Assembly: GCA_028718785.1 (NCBI GenBank)
Contig: JAQULB010000002.1
Coordinates: 84,750-148,749 of the forward strand
From: Minisyncoccota bacterium
Lineage (GTDB): Bacteria > Patescibacteriota > Minisyncoccia > Minisyncoccales > CG1-02-41-26
DNA: 64,000 nt
Reading direction: 5' to 3'
Positions 1,526 to 63,563 of the stretch are shown piece after piece. Under the pieces are notes generated by a model. That model had not been told where the DNA came from. It did no database searches and worked only from the letters and a program-made list of their open reading frames with translations. A program made the position numbers and the translations under genes. The stretch's first letter is position 1, and each line of letters opens with the position of its first letter.

Positions 1526-1535
1526 TAGAACTGTT

Positions 1536-1648
1536 CTAATTATTCTAATTGCTCTAATTATTCTAAATAAGCACCAAGCTCCAATTGGGAATTGGTTATT
1601 GGGATTTATTTAGGTTAATTAATATAATTAGGTCAATTAGGTTAATTT
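1536..1648 (+). repeat. ~110-bp intergenic repeat, copy 1 (forward)
   Basis: ctaattattctaaataa...aattgggaattggttattgggatttatttaggttaattaatataattaggtcaattaggttaattt. The reverse complement of 9090-9204 aligns along nearly its whole length. Confidence 0.85.
1599..1628 (+). promoter_or_regulatory. promoter-like element inside repeat copy 1
   Basis: TTGGGA (1599-1604), 18-nt spacer, TATAAT (1623-1628), pointing at the giant surface-protein gene. Confidence 0.45.
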
Positions 1649-1768
1649 TAAAGTTTAGGGCAGTCAATAGTAATAATTGATAATTATTGTTGTTGTTTGC
1701 CCTGAAATGTCGTTTGGGGCAATTTATTTAGTAATCCAAGCCAGGCATTAGTTTAAGGAAATTTTTCT

Positions 1769-1786
1769 TCGCTAAAGCTATGGCGG
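1769..1786 (+). promoter_or_regulatory. 18-nt motif shared with the sigma-factor gene start region
   Basis: tcgctaaagctatggcgg occurs at 105-122 and 1769-1786, and both copies include an ATG. At 1780 it opens a 9-codon uORF (MAGNKGRKK) 23 nt before the surface-protein ATG. Confidence 0.5.
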
Positions 1787-1831
1787 GTAATAAAGGTCGA
1801 AAAAAATAAAATAGATTATAAAATTAAAAAA

Positions 1832-5509: not shown

Positions 5510-5547
5510 TTATCCACAGGGGTTGACAAGAAATTATGTTGTATAAT
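5510..5547 (+). promoter_or_regulatory. DnaA-box 9-mer + TTGACA + TATAAT (non-canonical spacing)
   Basis: TTATCCACA (5510-5518), gggg, TTGACA (5523-5528), only a 13-nt spacer, TATAAT (5542-5547). Promoter function is uncertain because of the short spacer. Confidence 0.35.
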
Positions 5548-5601
5548 AAATAAATCTTAAAAATTATAAAAAGGTCGGAAAATTATTGTTTTTGATTTTC
5601 A

Positions 5602-5699: not shown

Positions 5700-6254
5700 A
5701 TGCAAAATAAAAAACAAACTATTGCTTTAATTGTAAGCGTGGTTTTAGCGGTTGGTTTGATTGTTGTTGGGGTTAACGCTGTTACCACAGTTGGAAACAA
5801 TGTTTCGGTTGGAGGCACTTTGGCTGTTGGTGGCACAGTAGCTTCTGTTGGGAATCTCAGCGTTGGCTCAAAAGCCACCACAACCGCAGCTTCTGGTAAT
5901 TTTGCCACATTGGGAACCATAACAAGCACAGGCGATTTATATGTTGGCGCCAAAGCCACTACCACAGCCGCAAGCGGAAATTTTGCCACTCTTGGGAGTA
6001 TAACTGGCAATGGAGATTTGTATGTAGGTGCTAAAGCCACCACTACCGCTGCTTCTGGAAATATTGCCACCCAAGGAACAATTACCTCAGCAAGAGCCAC
6101 TGATATTGGCTGGGCCGTGGCGTCATCAACAAATGCGGCTTGCAATACCACTTGCACAAGCGCTTGTGTTTTTGGTTGGGATGAAACTGATGCTGTTATC
6201 ACGAATTGCACTGAAGCTACAGCCGATGTTTGTGTGTGCGCTGGATCTAATTAA
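5700..6254 (+). CDS. small secreted repeat protein with Cys-rich C-terminal domain
   Basis: 184 aa. Signal/TM MQNKKQTIALIVSVVLAVGLIVVGVNA; three 27-aa repeats VGAKATTTAASGNFATLG.IT..GDLY; C-terminus has 7 Cys (ACNTTCTSACVFGWDETDAVITNCTEATADVCVCAG). Confidence 0.7.
   Translation: MQNKKQTIALIVSVVLAVGLIVVGVNAVTTVGNNVSVGGTLAVGGTVASVGNLSVGSKATTTAASGNFATLGTITSTGDLYVGAKATTTAASGNFATLGSITGNGDLYVGAKATTTAASGNIATQGTITSARATDIGWAVASSTNAACNTTCTSACVFGWDETDAVITNCTEATADVCVCAGSN
5862..6092 (+). repeat. three tandem 81-nt (27-codon) coding repeats
   Basis: Units at 5862-5942, 5943-6023 and 6024-~6092. The amino-acid sequence is nearly identical between units while many synonymous positions differ (e.g. gcagcttctggt vs gccgcaagcgga). 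Confidence 0.85.
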
Positions 6255-7380: not shown

Positions 7381-9081
7381 ATGCATATAAAACAAAAATT
7401 AATTTTGGCAGTTTTTATTTTTGGTTTAGTTTTTTCTTTTGCGCCGAGATTTTTTGTGTTAGCGAAAAGCGAAGGAGACAGGGAAATCTTTTTTGTTGAA
7501 AAATTATACGACCAAAACCAAAGAAGCCAAGTTGAGTTCCGCTTGGTGAAAATTTCCAACAATGCCTACTTTTATGTTGAAAGCAATTGGTATTTAACCA
7601 TAACTGATCAAGAAAGAGGGTTAATAAATCAAAATTTAGCTATTTTAGCAAGTAGTTTTGATAAGGAAATTTATCCAAAATTAACAAATTTTTGGGGAAG
7701 CGAGTGGAATCCGGGGATTGATAGTGACTCAAAAATAACAGTTGTTTTTGAACAGTTAAACAAAGGAGTGGCTGGTTATTTTAATGATGCTAATGAATAC
7801 CTAAAACAACAGTCGCCTTTTTCTAACCAAAGAGAGATGGTTTTTTTATCAACAGATGTTCTAAAAAGCAGTTTAGCAGAAAGTTATTTAGCTCATGAAT
7901 TTACCCACTTAATTACTTTTAATCAAAAAGACCGGCTTACTGGAACAAGCGAAGATGTTTGGCTTAATGAAGCCCGGGCTGAGTACTCTCCTTTTTATTT
8001 GGGTTATGATGGTCAGCAGAATCAATACAGTAATTTGCAACAAAGAGTAAATGATTTTAGCAACAAGCCATCTGACTCTTTGGTTATTTGGAATGGAGAA
8101 GAAAGCGATTATGGAGTAGTGGATATTTTTATCCAATATTTAGTTGAAAAATATGGCCAAAATATTTTGGTTTCTTCGTTGCATTCAAAAAAAACAGGCG
8201 TTGACTCAATTGACGAAGCATTGTTAAGCAGGGGAGAGGGTAAAAGTTTTTTGCAGATTTTTAACGACTGGGCAACAGCTGTTTTTTTAAATGATTGCTC
8301 TTTGGGGGATGTTTATTATTATAAAAGCAAAGAGTTGATGAATTTACGTTTGCCAGCTAATTTAATTGTTTTGCCTTCAATTGGAAAAACAAATTTATCG
8401 CTTAATTATTCTTTAATGCCATGGTCAAGCAACTGGTATAAGTTTATTGGCTCTGAAGGGGATTTAAAGCTTACTTTCAATTTTGATTCCAAAGCGCTTT
8501 TTGCTTTAAAGTATGTTTTATGCGAAATAAAAGACGGGTGTTCGGTTTTTGGTTTTGATGTTTCTGACTCAAAAAAAGAGTTGGTAATTAATAACTTTAG
8601 CCAGCATTATTTAAGCTTAACCTTAATACCATCAGTTAAACCAAGATTTTCAAATGCAGCTGGACTGGGAGATGTTTATTCTTTTTCAGTTGTGGCTCAA
8701 ACCAGCAACGAGCCATCAAAGTTTCAAGAAGAAGAGTTAATTAAATCGCTTTTAGCGCAGATCGAGCAATTAAAAATTCAAATAGCCAAAGTTCAGGCCC
8801 AGCTTTTAGCAATGGGAAAAACAAACCTTGTGTGTTCTGGCTTTCAAACAAACCTTTATTTTGGCTTGAGTTCAAGCCAAGTTAGTTGTTTGCAAGAATT
8901 TTTAAAAAATCAGGGCCCCGATATTTATCCACAAGGCATTGTTTCTGGATATTTTGGAAATTTAACTAAAACGGCTGTTATTAATTTTCAAGAAAAATAC
9001 GGGATTGCAAGCACTGGGTATGTGGGAGTGTTGACAAGAGCGAAAATTAATCAAATGCTATTGCCAACGCAGCAAAAATAG
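7381..9081 (+). CDS. secreted HExxH metallopeptidase-like protein with C-terminal coiled-coil + peptidoglycan-binding domain
   Basis: The ORF track starts at a TTG (7369); the ATG at 7381 gives MHIKQKLILAVFIFGLVFSFAPRFFVLA (signal). HExxH in YLAHEFTHLITF; coiled coil LLAQIEQLKIQIAKVQAQLLA; PG_binding_1-like LSSSQVSCLQEFLKNQG...GYFGNLTKTAVINFQEKY...LTRAKIN. Confidence 0.7.
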   Translation: MHIKQKLILAVFIFGLVFSFAPRFFVLAKSEGDREIFFVEKLYDQNQRSQVEFRLVKISNNAYFYVESNWYLTITDQERGLINQNLAILASSFDKEIYPKLTNFWGSEWNPGIDSDSKITVVFEQLNKGVAGYFNDANEYLKQQSPFSNQREMVFLSTDVLKSSLAESYLAHEFTHLITFNQKDRLTGTSEDVWLNEARAEYSPFYLGYDGQQNQYSNLQQRVNDFSNKPSDSLVIWNGEESDYGVVDIFIQYLVEKYGQNILVSSLHSKKTGVDSIDEALLSRGEGKSFLQIFNDWATAVFLNDCSLGDVYYYKSKELMNLRLPANLIVLPSIGKTNLSLNYSLMPWSSNWYKFIGSEGDLKLTFNFDSKALFALKYVLCEIKDGCSVFGFDVSDSKKELVINNFSQHYLSLTLIPSVKPRFSNAAGLGDVYSFSVVAQTSNEPSKFQEEELIKSLLAQIEQLKIQIAKVQAQLLAMGKTNLVCSGFQTNLYFGLSSSQVSCLQEFLKNQGPDIYPQGIVSGYFGNLTKTAVINFQEKYGIASTGYVGVLTRAKINQMLLPTQQK

Positions 9082-9089
9082 GGCAGAAT

Positions 9090-9204
9090 ATTATTAAATT
9101 AACCTAATTAACCTAATTATACTAATTAACCTAAATAAATCCCAATGACTAATTCTCAATTGGGATTTGGGGTTTGGTTATTATTTAGAATAATTAGAAT
9201 AATT
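9090..9204 (-). repeat. ~110-bp intergenic repeat, copy 2 (inverted)
   Basis: Its reverse complement reads ...ctaattattctaaataataaccaaaccccaaatcccaattgagaattagtcattgggatttatttaggttaattagtataattaggttaattaggttaattt. The same TTGGGA-N18-TATAAT is present on the minus strand (9145-9116). Confidence 0.85.
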
Positions 9205-9206
9205 TT

Positions 9207-31582: not shown

Positions 31583-32752
31583 ATGTTTGATAAAAAATTT
31601 ATAATTCCATATGGAAAACAATGGATTGACCAAAGCGATATTGAGGCGGTGGTTGAGGCGCTAAAAAGCGATTGGCTCACTTGCGGGCCCAAAGTGGATG
31701 AGTTTGAAAAATCTATTGCCAATTACTGCAATGTAAAGTATGCGGTGGCTTTTTCTTCTGGCACAGCGGCTTTGCATGGGGCATATAATGCTTTGGGCAT
31801 AAAACAGGGCGATGAAGTTATCACCACGCCCTTGACTTTTTCTGCCACTTCAAATGGAGTGGTTTACTGTGGGGGAAAACCAGTTTTTGTGGAGATAAAG
31901 CCAGAAACATTAAATATTGACCCAGAAAAAATTGAAGAAAAAATAAATTCAAAAACAAAAGCTATTGCCATTGTAGATTTTGCTGGTCAACCCTGTGATT
32001 TCAATGCCATTGAGGCAATTGCCAAAAAACACAATTTACCAATTGTGGAAGATGGGGCGCATGCTTTGGGTTCTGAGTATAATGGTTCGGAAGGCTCACC
32101 ACAAAAAGTTGGCTCTTTGGCTGATCTAACAATTTTAAGTTTTCATCCCGTGAAAACAATTTGTTCTGGGGAGGGGGGAATGGTTTTAACCAACAATCAA
32201 GATTTTTACGAGAAAATGAAAATTTTTAGGCATCATGGCATTGTAAAAAAACCAGAGGGCGGGCCTTGGTATTATGAAATAGAAGAATTGGGATATAATT
32301 ATCGCTTAACAGATATTCATTGCGCTTTGGGGATTTCCCAGTTAAAAAAATTAGATAAGTTTGTGGATAAACGACGCGAAATTGTGGCAAAATACCAAAT
32401 TGCTTTTAAAAACATACCAGAGATTATTTTGATAAAAGAGGAAAGTTTTGCTAAAAGCGCTTGGCATATTTATCCTGTTCAGTTTAATTTATTAAAATTA
32501 AAAATTAACAAAAAAGAAATTTTTGAAAAATTATCAGAAAAAGGAATAAAGTGCCAGGTGCATTATGTGCCTGTTCATTATATGCCTTTTTATCAAAAAA
32601 CATTTGGCTATAAAAAGGGGGATTTTCCAATTACCGAGCAGTATTATGAAAGAGCCATTACCTTGCCCTTATTTCCAAAATTAACTGATGAAGAACTTGA
32701 CTATGTAATTGAATCTGTAAAGGAAATTGTGAATTATGCAAAAAAGCAGTAA
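31583..32752 (+). CDS. pseC: UDP-4-amino-4,6-dideoxy-N-acetyl-beta-L-altrosamine transaminase, PseC type
   Basis: IPYGKQWIDQSDIEAV, SGTAALH, TPLTFSATSN, DGAHALGS, LSFHPVKTI..GEGG, HGIVKK, LGYNYRLTDIHCALGISQLKKLD. These match my recollection of PseC. The ATG at 31583 is preferred to the TTG at 31529. Confidence 0.9.
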   Translation: MFDKKFIIPYGKQWIDQSDIEAVVEALKSDWLTCGPKVDEFEKSIANYCNVKYAVAFSSGTAALHGAYNALGIKQGDEVITTPLTFSATSNGVVYCGGKPVFVEIKPETLNIDPEKIEEKINSKTKAIAIVDFAGQPCDFNAIEAIAKKHNLPIVEDGAHALGSEYNGSEGSPQKVGSLADLTILSFHPVKTICSGEGGMVLTNNQDFYEKMKIFRHHGIVKKPEGGPWYYEIEELGYNYRLTDIHCALGISQLKKLDKFVDKRREIVAKYQIAFKNIPEIILIKEESFAKSAWHIYPVQFNLLKLKINKKEIFEKLSEKGIKCQVHYVPVHYMPFYQKTFGYKKGDFPITEQYYERAITLPLFPKLTDEELDYVIESVKEIVNYAKKQ

Positions 32753-42873: not shown

Positions 42874-42880
42874 GTCTTAG

Positions 42881-43138
42881 AAGTCGTTAATAAGCGAAGC
42901 GAATTTACGAATTCTTAGATCCTGTTAAACGCTCCTCTCAGAGAGCGTTTAATCGGGATATTCCTTAAGTCGTTAATAAGCGAAGCGAATTTACGAATTC
43001 TTAGATCCTGTTAAACGCTCCTCTCAAAGAGCGTTTAATCGGGATATTCCTTAAGTCGTTAATAAGCGAAGCGAATTTACGAGTTCTTACACCCCGTTAA
43101 ACGCAACCTCAAGGAGCTGTTTAGCTGGGGTATTATTT
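42881..43138. repeat. three tandem 86-bp repeats, each with an internal hairpin
   Basis: Units at 42881-42966 and 42967-43052 differ at 1 of 86 positions. The third (43053-~43138) is diverged in its distal half. Each contains ttaaacgctc-N8-gagcgtttaa (e.g. 42925-42952) extended by atcc/ggat. Confidence 0.9.
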
Positions 43139-43156
43139 ATACTACAACAAAAAAAG

Positions 43157-43185
43157 TTGAAATTAAATAATAAAACGAGTAATAT
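43157..43185 (+). promoter_or_regulatory. sigma-70-type promoter
   Basis: TTGAAA (43157-43162), 17-nt spacer, TAATAT (43180-43185). Lies 28 nt upstream of the ATG at 43214. Confidence 0.45.
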
Positions 43186-43213
43186 GGGGATTAATAACTA
43201 ATAATAAATAAAT

Positions 43214-46484: not shown

Positions 46485-46523
46485 TTATCCACATGTTGAC
46501 ACATTGCGTTAAAGTGCGAAAAT
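46485..46523 (+). promoter_or_regulatory. promoter with abutting perfect DnaA-box 9-mer
   Basis: TTATCCACA (46485-46493), tg, TTGACA (46496-46501), 16-nt spacer ending in TGc, GAAAAT (46518-46523). Confidence 0.5.
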
Positions 46524-46572
46524 AAATAAAGGATGGCAGCATAGTCGACTGTCAAAAAAAGATACTAAAACG

Positions 46573-46617
46573 ATGCCAGCAAAAAAAAAGAAGAAAGCAA
46601 CAAAAAAGAAGAAATAG
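46573..46617 (+). CDS. possible 14-aa lysine-rich micropeptide (MPAKKKKKATKKKK)
   Basis: ATG...TAG lies between the promoter at 46485-46523 and the terminator at 46638-46696. No clear SD. It could equally be a non-coding RNA. Confidence 0.3.
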   Translation: MPAKKKKKATKKKK

Positions 46618-46637
46618 TTTTTCTTTTGTTGAAACAG

Positions 46638-46696
46638 ATCCCCGCCACGCCAGAGCTTAAAATTTTTTGAGCTTTCGTGTGGCGGGGATTTTCGTT
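46638..46696 (+). terminator. intrinsic terminator (long-loop hairpin)
   Basis: 11-bp GC-rich stem atccccgccac (46638-46648) / gtggcggggat (46679-46689), followed by tttcgttt. Confidence 0.6.
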
Positions 46697-46784
46697 TGAC
46701 TGGCAGTTGTTTTTTAAGTTTTAGTATGCTAACAATAAAGCAGGTTTTGATTATTAAGTTTTAATCTTAAAAAGGAGAAATAAG

Positions 46785-47195
46785 ATGCAACCAGATATAG
46801 CGATTGCTTTGAAAGGGCTAATGTTTATAGTAATTCCATTTGTTCTATTTTTTGTTTTTATAGCAAAGGTTTATCCTAGGATAGTTGACAGGAGAGAGTT
46901 CAAAGATTTCTTTGGGTTTACTTATAATTGTTTTAATGTTGAACAATTATTAAAGGAAAGAACCCTGTTTCTTGAAGGAGAATTTCGCACCCTGTTGATG
47001 AGCACAATTGAAATTTTTAAACCCTTAGCTGATATGGATATTTCTAGTAGCGATACAGATTTTTTGCTGGCTATGTGGAATGAGCAAACAAAAATAGTTC
47101 AAAGAAAAGCAAGAGAACTTGAGAGAGCCAGGACCCTTGCTGAAAAATTTGGTTTCAAAAATGAAAAATTCTTAGTAAGCACATCGTTGGATTAA
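46785..47195 (+). CDS. hypothetical membrane-anchored protein
   Basis: 136 aa. One N-terminal TM helix (IALKGLMFIVIPFVLFFVFIA). Preceded by an AAAGGAG SD. No recognisable family. Confidence 0.55.
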   Translation: MQPDIAIALKGLMFIVIPFVLFFVFIAKVYPRIVDRREFKDFFGFTYNCFNVEQLLKERTLFLEGEFRTLLMSTIEIFKPLADMDISSSDTDFLLAMWNEQTKIVQRKARELERARTLAEKFGFKNEKFLVSTSLD

Positions 47196-47207
47196 AAATA
47201 AAATAAT

Positions 47208-47246
47208 AAAAAGCGCGCAAGGAGGTGAAACCAGCGCGCTTTTTTA
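47208..47246 (+). terminator. intrinsic terminator
   Basis: aaaaagcgcgc ... gcgcgcttttt with a T-run. Confidence 0.8.
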
Positions 47247-47277
47247 ATGGTTTTATGGTAAAATGTTATTAAAATAA

Positions 47278-47345
47278 ACAAAAACTCCGCCTTTCGGCGG
47301 GTTCCTGCGAGTTTAACTCGAAACAAAATCTGGATTGTCACCCAT
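47278..47345 (-). ncRNA. predicted ~68-nt small RNA, antisense-complementary to the adjacent tRNA-like gene
   Basis: Delimited by a near-consensus promoter (47350-47377) and a CCGCC-GAAA-GGCGG + U-run terminator (47300-47271, minus strand). Nucleotides 47342-47329 (GGUGACAAUCCAGA) are complementary to the RNA encoded at 47453-47440. Contains an inner hairpin CGAGU-UAA-ACUCG. Confidence 0.5.
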
Positions 47346-47349
47346 ATTT

Positions 47350-47396
47350 AGTATATCATTAAGTATCTTTTTGTCAATGTAGAAAATTGTGGATAA
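47350..47396 (-). promoter_or_regulatory. near-consensus sigma-70 promoter with upstream DnaA-box 9-mer (minus strand)
   Basis: Minus strand reads TTATCCACA (47396-47388), 10 nt, TTGACA (47377-47372), 16-nt spacer ending in TGa, TATACT (47355-47350). Confidence 0.65.
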
Positions 47397-47406
47397 AGAA
47401 ATATGT

Positions 47407-47474
47407 TGGAGGTACGGGGAGTTGAACCCCGAAACTCTAGGTGACAATCCAGAGTTTGCTACCGAGCTACCCCC
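47407..47474 (-). tRNA. atypical 68-nt tRNA-like gene (anticodon region contains GUC/UGU; identity unresolved)
   Basis: Minus strand reads GGGGGTA GCTCGGTAGC AAACTCTGGATTGTCACCTAGAGTTT CGGGG-TTCAACT-CCCCG TACCTCC A. It has a 7-bp acceptor stem and a canonical T arm. The D arm is truncated to 3 bp with a 4-nt loop, there is no U8, and the anticodon arm has an 8-nt loop or a bulged U. A possible TGaTATAAT -10 lies at 47494-47486 (minus). Confidence 0.55.
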
Positions 47475-52536: not shown

Positions 52537-55212
52537 ATGCAGAAAAATTGGCACGAAATTTCATTGACGAAAATTTACTCAATATTGAAAACCCATCCCA
52601 ATGGGTTAAGCATAGAGGAGGCGAATTTTCGGTTACAAAAAAATGGCAAAAATGTTTTGCCTTCAACAAAACCGCTTTCTAAAAAAAAGCTTTTTTTTAG
52701 CCAGTTTAACAGCCCTTTAATGTATATTCTTTTAACAGCGGTTGTTGTTTCTTCTTTTTTAAAGCATCTTTCTGACACTATTTTTATTGTTGTGGTTTTG
52801 TTTATTAACACCACTGTGGGATTTTATCAAGAAAACAAAGCCAACAAATCTTTGGTTGCTTTAAAAAATATGATAAAGATAAAAGCCAAAGTTTTGCGCG
52901 ATAGCAATGAAAAAGAAATCGACAGCGAGGATGTGGTTGTGGGGGATGTGGTTATATTAAAAACGGGAGATAAAGTTCCTTGCGATGGCCGAATTATTGA
53001 ATCAAAAAATTTAAAAGTTGATGAAGCCAGTTTAACTGGGGAATTTATGGCGGTGAAAAAGGATATAGCGCAAAAAATACCAGAAAAAGCGTCTCTTGCT
53101 GAGCAGCTTAATATGGTTTTTATGGGCACAATTGTTGAGGAAGGAGAGGCCAAGTTAATAACCACAGGAATTGGCCTTAACACAGAAATTGGCAAAGTTG
53201 TTAAGTTGTTGAAAGAAACTAAAGAAAGAAGAACACCTCTTCAAAAGAAAATCCTCACGCTTTCAAAGCAAACCGCTGCTTTTATTTTAGCTATTATTTT
53301 GGTTATTATTTTAATTGGGCATTTTACAGAAAAATCTTTTAATGACATATTAGTGGCTTCGTTGGCTTTGGCTGTTTCAGCCATTCCTGAAGGTCTCTTG
53401 CCAGCTATTACTGTTATATTAACTTTGGGAATGCGTCGGATTTTTAAACAAAAAGGATTGGTGAGAAAATTAATTGCCACTGAAACTTTGGGGAGCGTAA
53501 CTGTTATTTGCGCTGATAAAACAGGCACTTTAACTGAGGGCAAAATGCAAGTGAGCGATATTTTAACAAGCACGACAGAATTGTTGAACGGCAATTTTAA
53601 GGGAATTTTACAAAACAAAAATTCAAACGGGGTTGAGTCGCATATTCTTGCTTTAAAAATTGCCACTTTGGTTAATGAAGCGTTTGTGGAAAATCCCGAT
53701 CAAGAATTAGAGAAATGGGTAATAAGGGGAAGGCCAACCGACCAGGCCTTGTTGATAGCTGGAATGCAAGCTGGTTTATATAAAAAAGAGCTGGAGGTTC
53801 AGTATCCTTTAATTGACAGAATTAATTTTGAATCTGGCGCAAAATATGCCACCACTTATCGTAAACTTAACAATAAGAAAAATATTTTATACGCTTTGGG
53901 CGCCCCGGAAATAATTATTGAAAAGTCAACTCATTTGGATATTGATGGCAAAAAGAAAAAGTTAAGTTCTGTTGCTTTAAACAAACTCCTTCTTAGGGTT
54001 GATAATTTAACTAAAAAGGGCTTAAGGGTATTGGCTTGTAGCTACAAAGAATACCCTTTATCCACAAAGTATAAAAATTTAAATGAGTTAAGAGAAAAAA
54101 CAATATTGGTTGGTTTTATTGCCATTAAAGACCCCTTAAGACCTGATGCCTCAGAATCTATTGAAATTACTAAAAAAGCTGGCATCCGCGCAGTTATTAT
54201 CACAGGGGACCACAAATTAACAGCCCAAACAATTGCTTTGGAGGTTGGGCTTGAAGCAGAAAAAGAAAATATTTTAGAAGGAAAAGAAATTGATGACTTG
54301 AGCGATGCGGACTTAAAAGAAAAAGTTAAATTTGTTTCAGTTTATGCGCGGGTTTCTCCCAGCCATAAGCTTCGTATTGTAAAAGCTCTTCAAGATAACA
54401 ACGAGGTTGTGGCTATGGTGGGAGATGGAGTCAATGATGCTCCAGCTTTAAAAATTGCTGATATTGGCATTTCTTTGGGCTCTGGAACGGATGTGGCAAA
54501 AGAATCTGCGGATTTGGTTTTACTTGATAATAATTTTAAAACCATTATTAAGGCCATTGAACAAGGGAGGGTTGTGTTTGGAAATATAAGAAAGGTTTTT
54601 ACCTATTTAGTGGCTGATGACTTTTCGGAGCTGTTTTTATTTTTGGGTTGTATGATAATGGGATTTCCCTTACCGCTCCTACCAGCTCAGATTCTTTGGA
54701 TAAATTTAGTGGAAGATGGATTCCCTGATATTGCCTTAACAACTGAGCAGGAAACAAAAGGCATAATGGACGAGCCCCCCAGAGACCCCAAAGAGCCAAT
54801 TTTAAACAAACCCTTAAAAAAATGGATGGCTTTTATTTTTTTAATCTCTGGATTGGCGGCTTTTCTTGCGTTTTTGCTTTTTTGGAAAATTTTTGGGCAA
54901 TTAGAAAAAGCCAGAACAATGACTTTTGCTTTAATGTGTTTTGACTCTTTAGCGTTTGCTTTTTCTGTGAGGTCGTTTAAAAGAACGATTTTTAGAAAAG
55001 ATATTTTCTCTAACAGGTATTTGGTTTTTGGCGTTGCGTTGGGGCTTGTTTTGTTGTTTGGAGCTATTTACTTTCCACCCTTACAAAAACTTTTAGCCAC
55101 TCAACCTTTAGGCAGTATTGATTGGCTGATGATTTTTGGCATTAGCTTAACAGAAATTATTTTAATAGAAACTGCCAAGAAACTGGTTTTTGGCTTTAAA
55201 AAAATAAAATAA
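52537..55212 (+). CDS. P-type cation-transporting ATPase (P2, Ca2+/Mg2+-type)
   Basis: 891 aa. TGE region, phosphorylation site CADKTGTLTEG, ITGDHKLTA, VGDGVNDAPALKIADIGISLG, about 10 TM helices. Confidence 0.9.
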   Translation: MQKNWHEISLTKIYSILKTHPNGLSIEEANFRLQKNGKNVLPSTKPLSKKKLFFSQFNSPLMYILLTAVVVSSFLKHLSDTIFIVVVLFINTTVGFYQENKANKSLVALKNMIKIKAKVLRDSNEKEIDSEDVVVGDVVILKTGDKVPCDGRIIESKNLKVDEASLTGEFMAVKKDIAQKIPEKASLAEQLNMVFMGTIVEEGEAKLITTGIGLNTEIGKVVKLLKETKERRTPLQKKILTLSKQTAAFILAIILVIILIGHFTEKSFNDILVASLALAVSAIPEGLLPAITVILTLGMRRIFKQKGLVRKLIATETLGSVTVICADKTGTLTEGKMQVSDILTSTTELLNGNFKGILQNKNSNGVESHILALKIATLVNEAFVENPDQELEKWVIRGRPTDQALLIAGMQAGLYKKELEVQYPLIDRINFESGAKYATTYRKLNNKKNILYALGAPEIIIEKSTHLDIDGKKKKLSSVALNKLLLRVDNLTKKGLRVLACSYKEYPLSTKYKNLNELREKTILVGFIAIKDPLRPDASESIEITKKAGIRAVIITGDHKLTAQTIALEVGLEAEKENILEGKEIDDLSDADLKEKVKFVSVYARVSPSHKLRIVKALQDNNEVVAMVGDGVNDAPALKIADIGISLGSGTDVAKESADLVLLDNNFKTIIKAIEQGRVVFGNIRKVFTYLVADDFSELFLFLGCMIMGFPLPLLPAQILWINLVEDGFPDIALTTEQETKGIMDEPPRDPKEPILNKPLKKWMAFIFLISGLAAFLAFLLFWKIFGQLEKARTMTFALMCFDSLAFAFSVRSFKRTIFRKDIFSNRYLVFGVALGLVLLFGAIYFPPLQKLLATQPLGSIDWLMIFGISLTEIILIETAKKLVFGFKKIK

Positions 55213-56543: not shown

Positions 56544-57563
56544 ATGGTGGAAATAGATTATCAAACAATTTGTAAGGATCTCTTGGAGAATTTGCCTCAA
56601 AGACAAAAACAGGTTTTATTAAGAAGGTTTGGTTTGGGTCAAGGTGAATCTGAAACATTACAGAGAATTGGCAATGATTTGGAGATAACAAGAGAAAGGG
56701 TGAGACAGCTTGAAAAGAGCGGTTTTTTGCGTTTAAAAGATTTTCAAAATGATAAAAATTTGAAAAAGATCTTTGATTATTTTGAAGAATTCTTAAATAA
56801 AAACGGCGGCTTAAAAAGAGAGGACATTTTGTTAAATGAATTATCTAAAAAAGATGAGAAAAATTTTATTTATTTTTTGTTAGTTTTGGGAGATAATTTT
56901 TACAGAATGGGCGACAATGAAATTTTATTGCCTTTTTGGTCAAATCAAAAAGAAAAAGCAGGAATTGTGGAAGAAACTGTTAAAAGGGTAAAGGAATTTT
57001 TCCATCAAGAAAAGAAGCCAGCAACATTTGATAATTTGTCAAAAAGTTTGAAAATAGAAGACAAGAATTTTTTAAGCGCTTGTTTGGAGATTGCCCGCGA
57101 TATTGAAGCGGGTCCATTGCAAAATTATGGTTTATCAATTTGGCCCGAAATAAAACCAAGAGGGGTGAGAGATGCTGCTTATTTAGTTTTAAAAAAAGCA
57201 GAAGAGCCCTTGCACTTTAGGGTCATTGCCACAAAAGCCGGAGAGCTTTCTGGGGACTTGTTTTCCAAAAGAAAAATGCTCCCCCAAACAATTCATAATG
57301 AACTGATAAGAGACAAAAGATTTATTTTGGTTGGCAGGGGAATTTATGGTTTAAGCGATTGGGGATATTCCACAGGCACTGTAAAAGATGTAATCTGCAA
57401 AGTGCTTCAAGCTAACGCTCCAATGGGAAAAGAAGAAATATTAACAGCTGTTCAAAAACAACGCCTTGTTAAACCAAACACGGTTTTTCTTAATTTGTCT
57501 GATAAGACCCTTTTTTCAAGGAATCAAGATGGAAAATATATTTTAAAAATTAAAACCGCTTGA
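56544..57563 (+). CDS. DNA-binding protein: sigma-70 region-4 HTH (N) + HARE-HTH-like domain (C)
   Basis: N-terminal LPQRQKQVLLRRFGLGQGESETLQRIGNDLEITRERVRQLEKSGFLRLK (region 4.2-like). C-terminal AYLVLKKAEEPLHFRVIA...IHNELIRDKRFILVGRGIYGLSDWGY resembles the RpoE-delta/HARE-HTH fold. No sigma region 2. Confidence 0.6.
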   Translation: MVEIDYQTICKDLLENLPQRQKQVLLRRFGLGQGESETLQRIGNDLEITRERVRQLEKSGFLRLKDFQNDKNLKKIFDYFEEFLNKNGGLKREDILLNELSKKDEKNFIYFLLVLGDNFYRMGDNEILLPFWSNQKEKAGIVEETVKRVKEFFHQEKKPATFDNLSKSLKIEDKNFLSACLEIARDIEAGPLQNYGLSIWPEIKPRGVRDAAYLVLKKAEEPLHFRVIATKAGELSGDLFSKRKMLPQTIHNELIRDKRFILVGRGIYGLSDWGYSTGTVKDVICKVLQANAPMGKEEILTAVQKQRLVKPNTVFLNLSDKTLFSRNQDGKYILKIKTA

Positions 57564-58984: not shown

Positions 58985-59118
58985 ATCTTAATATCTAAAT
59001 CCTAAATCCTAAACAAATCCAAATGACCAAAACCCAAAATCCAAAACAAAAAAGACAAACTGAGCCATTTTGGATTTAAAACATTTTGGCTTTGAGTTTA
59101 TTTAGAGTTTAAACATCT

Positions 59119-62269: not shown

Positions 62270-62405
62270 CAGCCTTAAACCCAAAATCCAAATAACAAAT
62301 GTCAAATCAAACCAAAAATCCAAATAACCAAAAAGGTTTTTTCTTGGGTTTTGAATTTTGAATTTGAATTGAAATTTGGATCTTGAAATTTGGATTTTTT
62401 TATTT

Positions 62406-63563
62406 ATGTTTCACGAAATAAAAAATTTAAAAAAAGCGGCTAAAAGAATCAAGCAGGCCGTTAAAAATAGCGAAAGAATAGTTATTTTTGCCGATGCTGA
62501 TTTAGATGGCACAACTTCCGCTATTATATTAGAGGAAACAATCAGTAATTTATCAGGAAAGGTTGACTTAGTTTTTTTCCCCGATAGAGGAGAATGCGGG
62601 TATGGTTTAAGCGAAAAAGCGGTTGATAGTTTTTCAAATATAGCGCCTGGTTTATTAATAATTTTGGATTGTGGTATTGGCAGTTTTGAGGGAATAAAAA
62701 AGGCCTCAGAGCTTGGTTTTGATGTTATTGTTATTGACCACCATGAGATTTTAGGAGAATTACCCAAACCAGCTTTAATTGTTGACCCAAAACAATCAAA
62801 AGACAAGTATCCTTTTAAGAAATTAGCTAATGTAAGCTTAACTTATAAATTAAGCGAGGAAATTTTTGGTAAAAAAATGCCCAACATTGTTCAAAAAGGA
62901 TTTTTTGAGTTAGCAGCTTTAGGAGCGATTGCTGATATGATGCCAGAGGAAGATTATAATAAAAAAGTCATTGAAGAAGGACAAAAGTGCTTAAAAGAAA
63001 CATTTAGGCCTGGCTTTATAGCTCTTATTGATTATTTTAAAGAGCAAAAAGAAGGCGAAGAAAGCCAAAGGGCTATTTTTTCAAAAATTGTCACAATTTT
63101 AAATATAACTAACTTAAAAAACAATTTAACTGAAAGCTATCTTTTTTTTAAAGAAAATAACCTCTCAAAAGCCAGGGAAATGATAAGAATGCTGTCAGAG
63201 GAGGCAACAAAAAGACAAATGCGAATTCAGGAAATAACCGAACAAATTGTTGCTAATGATAATTCAAGCGAAAGCATAGTTTTTCAAGGCAATGAAATGT
63301 GGGAACAAGTTTTAACAGGACCTGTTGCTTCAAGGGTTTGCAATAAAACGAAAAAACCAACATTTGTATATAAGGTAGGTAAAGAAAAGTGCAGGGGCTC
63401 TGTAAGAATGCCCGACAAAAGAGATGGGGTTATGGCTATGAAGGCCTGCGAGAGCTTTTTAGAGGTTTATGGGGGCCATCCCCCAGCAGCTGGATTTACC
63501 TGCGATAAATCGCAAGTGGAGGGACTGAAGAAGTGTCTTGAGGAATACTTCGAGACAATTTGA
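62406..63563 (+). CDS. DHH/DHHA1-family phosphoesterase, short RecJ-like exonuclease
   Basis: IVIFADADLDGTTS, VIVIDHHE (DHH motif), GGHPPAAGF (DHHA1 GGH motif). The ATG at 62406 is preferred to the TTG at 62376. Confidence 0.75.
   Translation: MFHEIKNLKKAAKRIKQAVKNSERIVIFADADLDGTTSAIILEETISNLSGKVDLVFFPDRGECGYGLSEKAVDSFSNIAPGLLIILDCGIGSFEGIKKASELGFDVIVIDHHEILGELPKPALIVDPKQSKDKYPFKKLANVSLTYKLSEEIFGKKMPNIVQKGFFELAALGAIADMMPEEDYNKKVIEEGQKCLKETFRPGFIALIDYFKEQKEGEESQRAIFSKIVTILNITNLKNNLTESYLFFKENNLSKAREMIRMLSEEATKRQMRIQEITEQIVANDNSSESIVFQGNEMWEQVLTGPVASRVCNKTKKPTFVYKVGKEKCRGSVRMPDKRDGVMAMKACESFLEVYGGHPPAAGFTCDKSQVEGLKKCLEEYFETI

What the first reader, a model, noticed from the sequence alone, without database searches (positions are those of the whole stretch)
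46485..47396. All three perfect DnaA-box 9-mers (TTATCCACA) in the window sit immediately upstream of a TTGACA -35 hexamer
I found TTATCCACA three times:
- 5510-5518 (+), 4 nt before TTGACA;
- 46485-46493 (+), 2 nt before TTGACA;
- 47396-47388 (-), 10 nt before TTGACA.

On the order of one perfect 9-mer would be expected by chance in 64 kb on both strands. Having all three abut a consensus -35 is not expected.

The associated transcription units are all small or unusual: the Cys-rich repeat protein with a structured leader, the 14-aa Lys-rich mini-ORF, and the small RNA complementary to the tRNA-like gene. The 9-mer is the strongest E. coli-type DnaA box. DnaA is also known as a transcription factor.

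This may therefore define a small DnaA-controlled (replication or cell-cycle coupled) regulon, or a binding site for another factor or an UP-like element. There is no dnaA/dnaN, box cluster or AT-rich unwinding element here, so I do not interpret it as oriC.
Basis: partly seen in the sequence, partly recalled or inferred. Interest (0 to 1): 0.6.

Follow-up and report, generated by a model that had tools for sequence, protein, structure and literature searches.

The report
Conserved DnaA-box sites at Paceibacteria promoters
A 9-base sequence identical to the binding site of the replication initiator DnaA sits just upstream of several strong promoters in this tiny-genome (CPR/Paceibacteria) bacterium and is conserved there in related genomes, so it is a real regulatory site, most likely tying a few highly expressed small genes to DnaA.

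Summary
The sequence facts are right but incomplete. TTATCCACA occurs six times in the window, not three (0.68 expected). Three copies are intragenic, explained by codons and not conserved. The other three lie 4, 2 and 10 nt upstream of TTGACA, as reported (P about 1.5e-6).

The window comes from a Candidatus Pacebacteria MAG and contains no dnaA, dnaN or GC-skew switch.

Conservation in relatives:
- **P2** (46485, a stand-alone Lys-rich 10-15-codon gene): the 9-mer is kept in all 10 orthologous loci. Nine are perfect and one is TTTTCCACA, while the upstream flank is scrambled.
- **P1** (5510, a secreted repeat protein): kept in all five lineages, with spacing to the -35 changing from 4 to 12 nt and one TTATTCACA variant.
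- **P3** (47396, a small RNA): not kept in its single ortholog.

More promoter-proximal boxes turned up in relatives. Variation occurs only at positions 3 and 5, the degenerate positions of the DnaA consensus TTWTNCACA. The site is asymmetric, single, and almost always oriented towards the promoter.

Best reading: high-affinity DnaA boxes acting as promoter-proximal regulatory sites, as at E. coli nrdAB. Binding by DnaA is inferred, not shown. This is a new member of a known kind, of moderate interest.

The parts
5510..5518 (+). P1 box, TTATCCACA
   Evidence: Retained upstream of the homologous gene in L013, L014/15/16, L017 (as TTATTCACA) and L018.
5523..5528 (+). P1 TTGACA hexamer, 4 nt after the box and only 13 nt before the TATAAT
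   Evidence: The same 13-nt spacer occurs in L013 and a 14-nt spacer in L014. This geometry is not canonical for a sigma-70-type promoter.
5542..5547 (+). P1 -10 hexamer, TATAAT
   Evidence: The block TTGTTGTATAATAAA is conserved in L013 and L014.
5700..6254 (+). Gene driven by P1: a 184-aa protein with a signal/anchor segment, Ala/Thr/Gly-rich repeats and a Cys-rich C-terminus. A PG_binding_1 protein follows it.
   Evidence: Translation, no Pfam hit, homologues. The gene pair is conserved in L013, L014, L017 and L018.
46485..46493 (+). P2 box, TTATCCACA, 27 nt after the murB stop codon
   Evidence: It is the 5' edge of a conserved block in 10 orthologous loci.
46496..46501 (+). P2 -35 hexamer, TTGACA (TTGACAC is invariant)
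46515..46523 (+). P2 extended -10, TGCGAAAAT, with a 16-nt spacer from the -35
   Evidence: Assigned by position and conservation, with no transcription start data.
46534..46554 (+). 5' hairpin of the P2 transcript, with a nearly invariant loop containing AUAGUCGA
   Evidence: 7 pairs, with compensatory changes in L002 and L012.
46573..46617 (+). Lys-rich mini-ORF, MPAKKKKKATKKKK*
   Evidence: An ATG-to-TAG frame of 10-15 codons is kept in all 10 orthologs despite insertions and deletions.
46637..46697 (+). Intrinsic terminator of the P2 unit
   Evidence: a long GC-rich hairpin followed by a T run, carrying most of the 15 pairs that show compensatory changes.
47388..47396 (-). P3 box, TTATCCACA on the minus strand
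   Evidence: It is not present at the orthologous promoter in L005.
47372..47377 (-). P3 -35 hexamer, TTGACA
   Evidence: It lies 10 nt after the box.
47350..47355 (-). P3 -10 hexamer, TATACT, with a 16-nt spacer
47278..47342 (-). Small RNA of about 65 nt driven by P3. Its 5' end is complementary to the neighbouring tRNA-like element, and it ends in a hairpin plus a U run.
   Evidence: Fold. The complementarity covaries in L005. The ends are inferred.
47407..47474 (-). tRNA-like element with a reduced D arm, a 9-bp anticodon stem and an 8-nt loop
   Evidence: It is not called by ARAGORN or by Rfam at gathering score.
8925..8933 (+). Intragenic copy, probably incidental. It encodes part of the IYPQ motif of a PG_binding_1 domain.
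   Evidence: It is not a box in the L014 ortholog.
32362..32370 (-). Intragenic copy in the DegT aminotransferase gene, probably incidental
   Evidence: No ortholog was available for comparison.
54058..54066 (+). Intragenic copy in the P-type ATPase gene (codons for PLST), probably incidental
   Evidence: The residues differ in L001 and L004, and no box is present there.

Best explanation
The intergenic TTATCCACA copies are high-affinity, single DnaA boxes used as promoter-proximal regulatory sites in this Paceibacteria lineage.

A DnaA monomer (domain IV) would bind the asymmetric 9-mer, which lies 2-20 nt upstream of the -35 region and nearly always points towards the promoter. From there it could help RNA polymerase, as an activator bound at about -40 to -60 does. 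When DnaA-ATP is abundant it could instead spread over the -35 and repress.

Either way, output of a small set of strongly expressed units would follow DnaA availability and therefore replication status. Those units are the secreted repeat protein (P1), the stand-alone Lys-rich micro-ORF gene (P2), a small RNA (P3) and, in relatives, giant surface proteins and a tRNA-like RNA.

Shown: the sites exist, are non-random, are conserved at orthologous promoters, and vary only where DnaA boxes vary.

Inferred: that DnaA is the binder, and the direction of the effect. The three intragenic copies are incidental.
For: 1. Enrichment and adjacency. There are 6 copies against 0.68 expected. Three of six lie next to TTGACA, with P = 1.5e-6.

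2. Conservation at P2. The loci were retrieved through SecA homology or through a pattern in the transcribed region that excluded the box. All 10 keep the 9-mer 2 nt before TTGACAC. L007 has TTTTCCACA. The 45 nt upstream are not conserved, and the conserved block begins at the box.

3. Conservation at P1. The box is kept in the window, L013, L014, L017 (TTATTCACA) and L018, across proteins only 34-74% identical. The distance to TTGACA changes from 4 to 12 nt, and two lineages lack TTGACA altogether. The box therefore behaves as an independent element.

4. Further promoter-proximal instances in relatives:
- L004 12797 (inverted)
- L017 -9403 and -8292
- L020 19423 and L021 19304, which are orthologous and lie upstream of a giant surface protein
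- L021 19237
- L020 4435

5. Variation. Across 12 independent promoter groups, positions 1, 2, 4 and 6-9 are invariant. Position 3 is A or T. Position 5 takes all four bases. This is the DnaA consensus TTWTNCACA.

6. Distribution. In 283 kb of related sequence, 17 of 23 perfect copies are intergenic, while intergenic DNA is 8.8% of the sequence. The box ranks first for intergenic count among all 1680 same-composition 9-mers.

7. Binding mode. The site is non-palindromic with no conserved second half-site, which suits a monomeric binder such as DnaA domain IV.

8. Literature. DnaA is encoded in Paceibacterota. DnaA acts as activator or repressor from boxes at promoters such as nrdAB. E. coli sites bound in vivo show a partly similar flank preference for G before and after the box. 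Here G precedes the box in 7 of 12 promoter groups and follows it in 4 of 12, with A following in 6.
Against: - No dnaA gene, oriC or DnaA protein of this lineage could be retrieved. It is therefore untested that its DnaA recognises TTATCCACA. No dnaA lies in the window or within 10 kb to its right in two relatives.
- In E. coli, ChIP-seq shows that most in vivo binding needs a pair of boxes 2-3 bp apart, and only 13 of 32 perfect single boxes are occupied. Here no second box is evident.
- The P3 box is not conserved in L005.
- Distances from the box to the -10 range from 23 to 43 nt without clean helical phasing (my tabulation). This is unlike a strict class II activator.
- The core promoters already have consensus -35 hexamers, so activation may not be needed.
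- P1 has a 13-14 nt spacer that this model does not explain.
Confidence: 0.6

Rival explanations
1. The 9-mer is the operator of a different, lineage-specific DNA-binding protein that binds as a monomer, and its identity to the DnaA box is coincidental or convergent. One candidate is the conserved Sigma70_r4 + HARE-HTH protein encoded at 56544-57563. Others are the ECF sigma factor (116-655) and, just beyond the window's left edge (L008), the DeoR-type HTH protein.
For: - Conservation shows only that something binds.
- No second box is present, unlike most E. coli sites bound by DnaA in vivo.
- A weak extra 5' preference (A-A-A-G) is seen in several instances.
- The promoter of the Sigma70_r4/HARE-HTH gene itself carries a box in L020 and one further upstream in L009, as an autoregulated factor might.
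Against: - The conserved block coincides exactly with the 9 bp of the DnaA box, and the tolerated changes are exactly those of TTWTNCACA.
- G flanking the box is also seen at E. coli DnaA sites.
- Any cell with a canonical DnaA would occupy a perfect box anyway.
- The window's own copy of the Sigma70_r4/HARE-HTH promoter has no box.
Confidence: 0.2
2. The boxes do bind DnaA, but they serve as titration or reservoir sites of the datA/DARS type that control free DnaA. They lie in intergenic DNA only because that does not damage genes, and they have no role in transcription.
For: Perfect boxes bind DnaA in either nucleotide state (established knowledge). E. coli has such non-transcriptional sites.
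Against: - 11 of 12 promoter groups share one orientation relative to transcription.
- Most boxes lie 2-20 nt from a -35-like hexamer. A pure titration role would not constrain either feature.
- They are single boxes, whereas datA and DARS are clusters.
- They are tied to particular genes across genomes, even when the neighbourhood changes.
Confidence: 0.1
3. The 9-mer is part of the promoter itself, read by RNA polymerase as an UP-like or extended -35 element, or as the -35 of an alternative sigma factor.
For: It always lies upstream of a promoter and usually next to a consensus -35 hexamer.
Against: - It is not A/T-rich like an UP element.
- The distance to the -35 varies from 2 to 20 nt and one copy is inverted.
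- Most promoters in these loci, including other TTGACA-N16-18-TAnnnT promoters, lack it.
Confidence: 0.05

Closest known systems
E. coli nrdAB promoter, where high-affinity DnaA boxes immediately upstream of the -35 give DnaA-dependent activation or repression
   Same: Consensus TTATCCACA sits directly upstream of the promoter. The proposed logic is also the same: bound DnaA stabilises RNA polymerase at low DnaA-ATP and occludes it at high DnaA-ATP. G flanks the box in both cases.
   Different: - nrdA has a double box (TTATCCACAaagTTATGCACT) plus an ATP-DnaA-specific box. Here there is a single box with no partner.
- The target genes have no evident link to nucleotide or DNA metabolism.
- The relative orientation at nrdAB is recalled from memory and was not checked here.
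[quoted passage not shown]
   Same: The replication initiator is reused as a transcription factor through its origin-type 9-mer at a handful of promoters.
   Different: - The known targets concern replication, nucleotide supply, repair, sporulation checkpoints and cell-cycle regulators.
- Here the targets are surface proteins, a Lys-rich micro-ORF and small or tRNA-like RNAs.
- B. subtilis uses box clusters, not single boxes.
- No experimental data exist for any CPR organism. Literature searches found none.
datA / DARS DnaA-box loci
   Same: They contain perfect TTATCCACA copies outside oriC.
   Different: They are clusters or double boxes with no fixed relation to a promoter. The sites here are single and locked to promoters.

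Membership tests
DnaA box (DnaA regulatory binding site) | Sequence matches the 9-bp consensus TTATNCACA / TTWTNCACA | tested here: met
   Perfect TTATCCACA at 5510, 46485 and 47396. Ortholog variants are TTTTCCACA, TTATTCACA, TTATGCACA and TTATACACA only.
DnaA box (DnaA regulatory binding site) | Under selection: retained at orthologous positions while the flanks diverge | tested here: met
   P2 is retained in 10 of 10 loci and P1 in 5 of 5 lineages. P3 is absent from its single ortholog.
DnaA box (DnaA regulatory binding site) | The genome encodes DnaA | not testable with these tools
   There is no DnaA domain in the window or within 10 kb to its right in L020 and L021. The literature reports dnaA in Paceibacterota. 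The rest of the 162-kb source contig could not be fetched.
DnaA box (DnaA regulatory binding site) | The same 9-mer builds oriC in this lineage | not tested
   No oriC or dnaA locus was retrieved, because the collection scans and look-ups were exhausted.
DnaA box (DnaA regulatory binding site) | Physical binding by DnaA and an effect on transcription | not testable with these tools
   This needs EMSA, DAP-seq or reporter assays.
E. coli-type 'double DnaA box' (the in vivo binding unit) | A second box with at least about 5 of 9 matches, 2-3 bp from the first | tested here: not met
   The 9-mers 2-3 bp upstream or downstream of the P1 and P2 boxes match the consensus at 3 or fewer positions. The upstream flank is unconserved (compared with the table).
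Replication origin (oriC) | A box cluster, an AT-rich unwinding element, a GC-skew switch, and usually dnaA/dnaN nearby | tested here: not met
   The boxes are single, GC skew is positive across the whole window, and there is no dnaA or dnaN.
UP element | An A/T-rich tract at -40 to -60 at fixed distance from the -35 | tested here: not met
   The motif has four G/C positions. The distance to the -35 varies from 2 to 20 nt and one copy is inverted.

The most novel reading that the evidence does not exclude
In Paceibacteria, which have very few transcription factors, DnaA may have been recruited as a main regulator of the most strongly expressed envelope and small-RNA/micropeptide genes. These include repeat and giant surface proteins, a poly-Lys micro-protein, and tRNA-like/antisense RNA modules. 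It would act through single consensus boxes locked in orientation to the promoter. The cell-surface or episymbiotic programme would then be coupled directly to replication-initiation potential. Single boxes would suffice, unlike in E. coli.
Probability: 0.25. Interest if true: 0.65.

Novelty: new member of a known kind. Interest (0 to 1): 0.45.

Why it matters
Gene regulation in CPR/Patescibacteria is almost unknown, and no promoter or regulon study of DnaA boxes in these organisms was found in the searchable literature.

A conserved, easily recognised cis-element with an obvious candidate binder gives a testable entry point. DnaA from a MAG can be expressed and tested against P1 and P2 DNA.

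The element also marks out which units these minimal cells regulate: major surface proteins, a conserved poly-lysine micro-ORF gene, and small RNAs. If DnaA is the binder, it would extend the transcription-factor role of the initiator to a very different set of targets, and would show that single boxes are functional outside E. coli.

Tried and rejected
- **oriC reading.** Rejected: no GC-skew switch, no dnaA/dnaN, no box cluster.
- **Repeated mobile promoter cassette.** Rejected: P1, P2 and P3 share nothing beyond the 9-mer and TTGACA.
- **Intragenic copies as functional sites.** Rejected for 8925 and 54058: they follow from the codons (IYPQ, PLST) and are not boxes in the orthologs. Copy 32362 could not be compared.
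- **Double-box architecture.** Looked for and not found.
- **Helical phasing of box position.** Box-to-(-10) distances are 23-25, 28-35 and 42-43 nt, which is too scattered to claim.
- **Invertible-promoter reading of the inverted repeat around P3.** Not supported, because in L004 the promoter lies outside the repeat.
- **Extending the source contig.** Look-ups of window-edge proteins returned only 2-kb Logan contigs or nothing.
- **Walking 10 kb to the right in two relatives.** No dnaA was found.
- **ARAGORN and Rfam at gathering score.** Nothing found in the window.
- **Literature searches** for DnaA boxes in CPR, Patescibacteria or Saccharibacteria, and for CPR promoters. Nothing relevant was found.

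Full report
**Observation**

TTATCCACA occurs six times in the window, not three. Dinucleotide shuffles predict 0.68 copies, and none of 100 shuffles reached six.

Each is followed by TTGACA after 4, 2 and 10 nt. The other three copies, at 8925+, 32362- and 54058+, lie inside genes for a PG_binding protein, a DegT aminotransferase and a P-type ATPase. None has a -35-like hexamer beside it.

A random position has TTGACA 0-12 nt downstream with probability 0.0043. Three of six therefore has P = 1.5e-6. Using only intergenic positions as the null gives 3e-6. No other 9-mer recurs three times upstream of TTGACA in the window.

**Context**

The window is 34.7% G+C, with almost all genes on the + strand and positive GC skew throughout. 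Its SecA is identical to a protein from a 'Candidatus Pacebacteria' MAG contig of 162 kb.

Pfam scans of 50 of the 51 ORFs I took as genes show the following; the remaining one, 62376-63563, is a DHH-family phosphoesterase:
- a large glycan-biosynthesis cluster
- murB, secA and secDF
- a P-type ATPase
- a Sigma70_r4/HARE-HTH protein
- a type IV secretion-like ATPase
- pgk
- no DnaA or DnaN

This is not an origin.

**The three transcription units**

P1 reads TTATCCACA-GGGG-TTGACA-N13-TATAAT (5510-5547). It precedes a 184-aa secreted, repeat-rich and Cys-rich protein. The spacer between the -35 and -10 hexamers is only 13 nt.

P2 (46485-46523) has the box, 2 nt, TTGACAC, a 16-nt spacer and TGCGAAAAT. 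It drives a self-contained unit made of a 5' hairpin, a 14-codon Lys-rich ORF and a long intrinsic terminator.
- In ten orthologs the ORF stays in frame at 10-15 codons despite insertions and deletions.
- The hairpin and terminator show compensatory changes in 15 pairs.

P3 (47396-47350, minus strand) has the box, 10 nt and TTGACA-N16-TATACT. It drives a terminated RNA of about 65 nt whose 5' end is complementary to the anticodon arm of the adjacent tRNA-like element.

**Conservation**

Relatives were obtained in ways that did not use the box:
- SecA homology in genome contigs
- a pattern from the transcribed part of P2 in metagenome contigs
- look-ups of homologous SecA, repeat-protein and DHH proteins

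At P2, all ten independent loci keep the 9-mer 2 nt before TTGACAC. Nine are perfect and L007 has TTTTCCACA. The 45 nt upstream are essentially unconserved, and the conserved block starts at the box.

At P1 the box is kept in:
- L013, with spacing 4
- L014/15/16, with spacing 12
- L017, as TTATTCACA and with no TTGACA
- L018, perfect and with no TTGACA

The downstream proteins in these lineages are only 34-74% identical. The pairing of the gene with a PG_binding_1 gene is conserved.

At P3 the single ortholog (L005) keeps the promoter and the RNA complementarity but has no box.

Two of the three intragenic copies could be compared with orthologs. Neither is conserved, and both follow from the encoded residues.

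**A wider pattern**

Further boxes appear upstream of promoters in relatives:
- an inverted copy 6 nt before TTGACA-N16-TATAAT, driving a tRNA-like RNA in L004
- TTATTCACA-N10-TTGACA and TTATGCACA-N8-TTGACG-N17-TATGAT in L017
- an orthologous pair upstream of a giant surface protein in L020 and L021, plus a second perfect copy in L021
- TTATACACA-N12-TTGACA before the Sigma70_r4/HARE-HTH gene in L020

Across 12 independent promoter groups, positions 1, 2, 4 and 6-9 never vary. Position 3 is A or T. Position 5 takes all four bases. Eleven of the twelve groups share one orientation relative to transcription.

In 283 kb of non-redundant related sequence, 17 of 23 perfect copies are intergenic, against 8.8% intergenic DNA. 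The box ranks first for intergenic count among all 1680 same-composition 9-mers. These counts are inflated by orthologs, but they remain skewed after orthologs are removed. In the earlier 253-kb tally of TTATNCACA, 7 copies are then intergenic and 8 coding.

Most promoters in these loci are of the extended -10 type (by eye, from the sequences) and lack the box. It is therefore not a general promoter element.

**Interpretation**

The element is a conserved, asymmetric, single 9-bp site whose boundaries and tolerated substitutions coincide with the DnaA box TTWTNCACA. DnaA is encoded in Paceibacterota. From established knowledge, its domain IV recognises this 9-mer across phyla.

DnaA is a known activator and repressor from promoter-proximal boxes. 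At nrdAB, bound DnaA stabilises RNA polymerase at low DnaA-ATP and occludes it at high DnaA-ATP. E. coli sites bound in vivo show a G before and after the box, and the sites here show this partly: G precedes the box in 7 of 12 promoter groups and follows it in 4 of 12.

I therefore favour DnaA-dependent control of these promoters, with confidence 0.6. Binding, and the direction of the effect, are inferred.

Points against this reading:
- E. coli ChIP-seq indicates that most binding needs double boxes 2-3 bp apart, and none is present here.
- Box positions are not phased.
- P3 is not conserved.
- No dnaA or oriC of the lineage could be retrieved.

The rivals are a lineage-specific monomeric factor (0.2), DnaA titration sites without a transcriptional role (0.1), and an RNA-polymerase-read element (0.05).

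**Novelty and score**

DnaA as a transcription factor is well known. The lineage, the target set and the single-box, orientation-locked architecture are new, and nothing on this was found in the literature. I rate it a new member of a known kind, with interest 0.45.

Noticed in passing
window 47278-47474 (minus strand); L005 830-1050; L004 12555-12800: A tRNA-like element (47474-47407) is followed by a promoter and a small RNA of about 65 nt. The element has a reduced D arm, a 9-bp anticodon stem and an 8-nt loop AUUGUCAC, and tRNA finders miss it. The first 14 nt of the small RNA are complementary to the element's anticodon arm. L005 has the same module with a different sequence but keeps 16 nt of complementarity, which is covariation. 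L004 has a different tRNA-like RNA whose own 5' leader is complementary to its anticodon arm. The function is unknown. In relatives, toxin-antitoxin pairs occupy the same intergenic slots.
   Followed up: partly
window 46530-46697: A stand-alone conserved gene for a 10-15-residue poly-lysine peptide (MPAKKKKKATKKKK). It has a nearly invariant 5' hairpin loop containing AUAGUCGA, its stop codon sits in a purine/pyrimidine hairpin, and it has its own terminator. It is usually placed between murB and secA. It could be a micro-protein or a leader-type sensor.
   Followed up: partly
window 5523-5547; L013, L014; L021 19257-19281: Consensus TTGACA lies only 13-14 nt from a consensus TATAAT or TATATT. 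This spacing is conserved across lineages and is too short for a normal sigma-70-type promoter.
   Followed up: no
window 5571-5580; L013, L014, L017 and L018 leaders; window 46541-46548: A short motif, AAGGUCG(A/G) or AUAGUCGA, recurs in the 5' leaders of the P1-family genes and in the loop of the P2 hairpin. It may be a shared RNA-level signal.
   Followed up: no
window 56544-57563: A 339-aa protein with an N-terminal sigma-70 region 4 domain and a HARE-HTH domain is conserved next to a type IV secretion-like ATPase in all relatives. Its promoter carries a DnaA-type box in L020 (12 nt before TTGACA) and one about 60 nt upstream in L009, but none in the window.
   Followed up: partly
window 42874-43213: Three tandem copies of a unit of about 100 nt (GTCGTTAATAAGCGAAGCGAATTTACGAATTCTTAGATCC..., each with an internal hairpin) lie in the divergent intergenic region between the sugar transferase gene and the Wzy-like gene.
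   Followed up: no
window 1526-1831, 9082-9206, 58985-59118, 62272-62375: Several intergenic regions are built from short A/T-rich near-repeats (TAATTA/CTAAT, AAATCC/AAAACC) that form inverted arrangements flanking genes.
   Followed up: no
L011 1674-2093: A bAvd-family gene (accessory protein of diversity-generating retroelements) lies near the glycan cluster of a close relative and is absent from the window.
   Followed up: no
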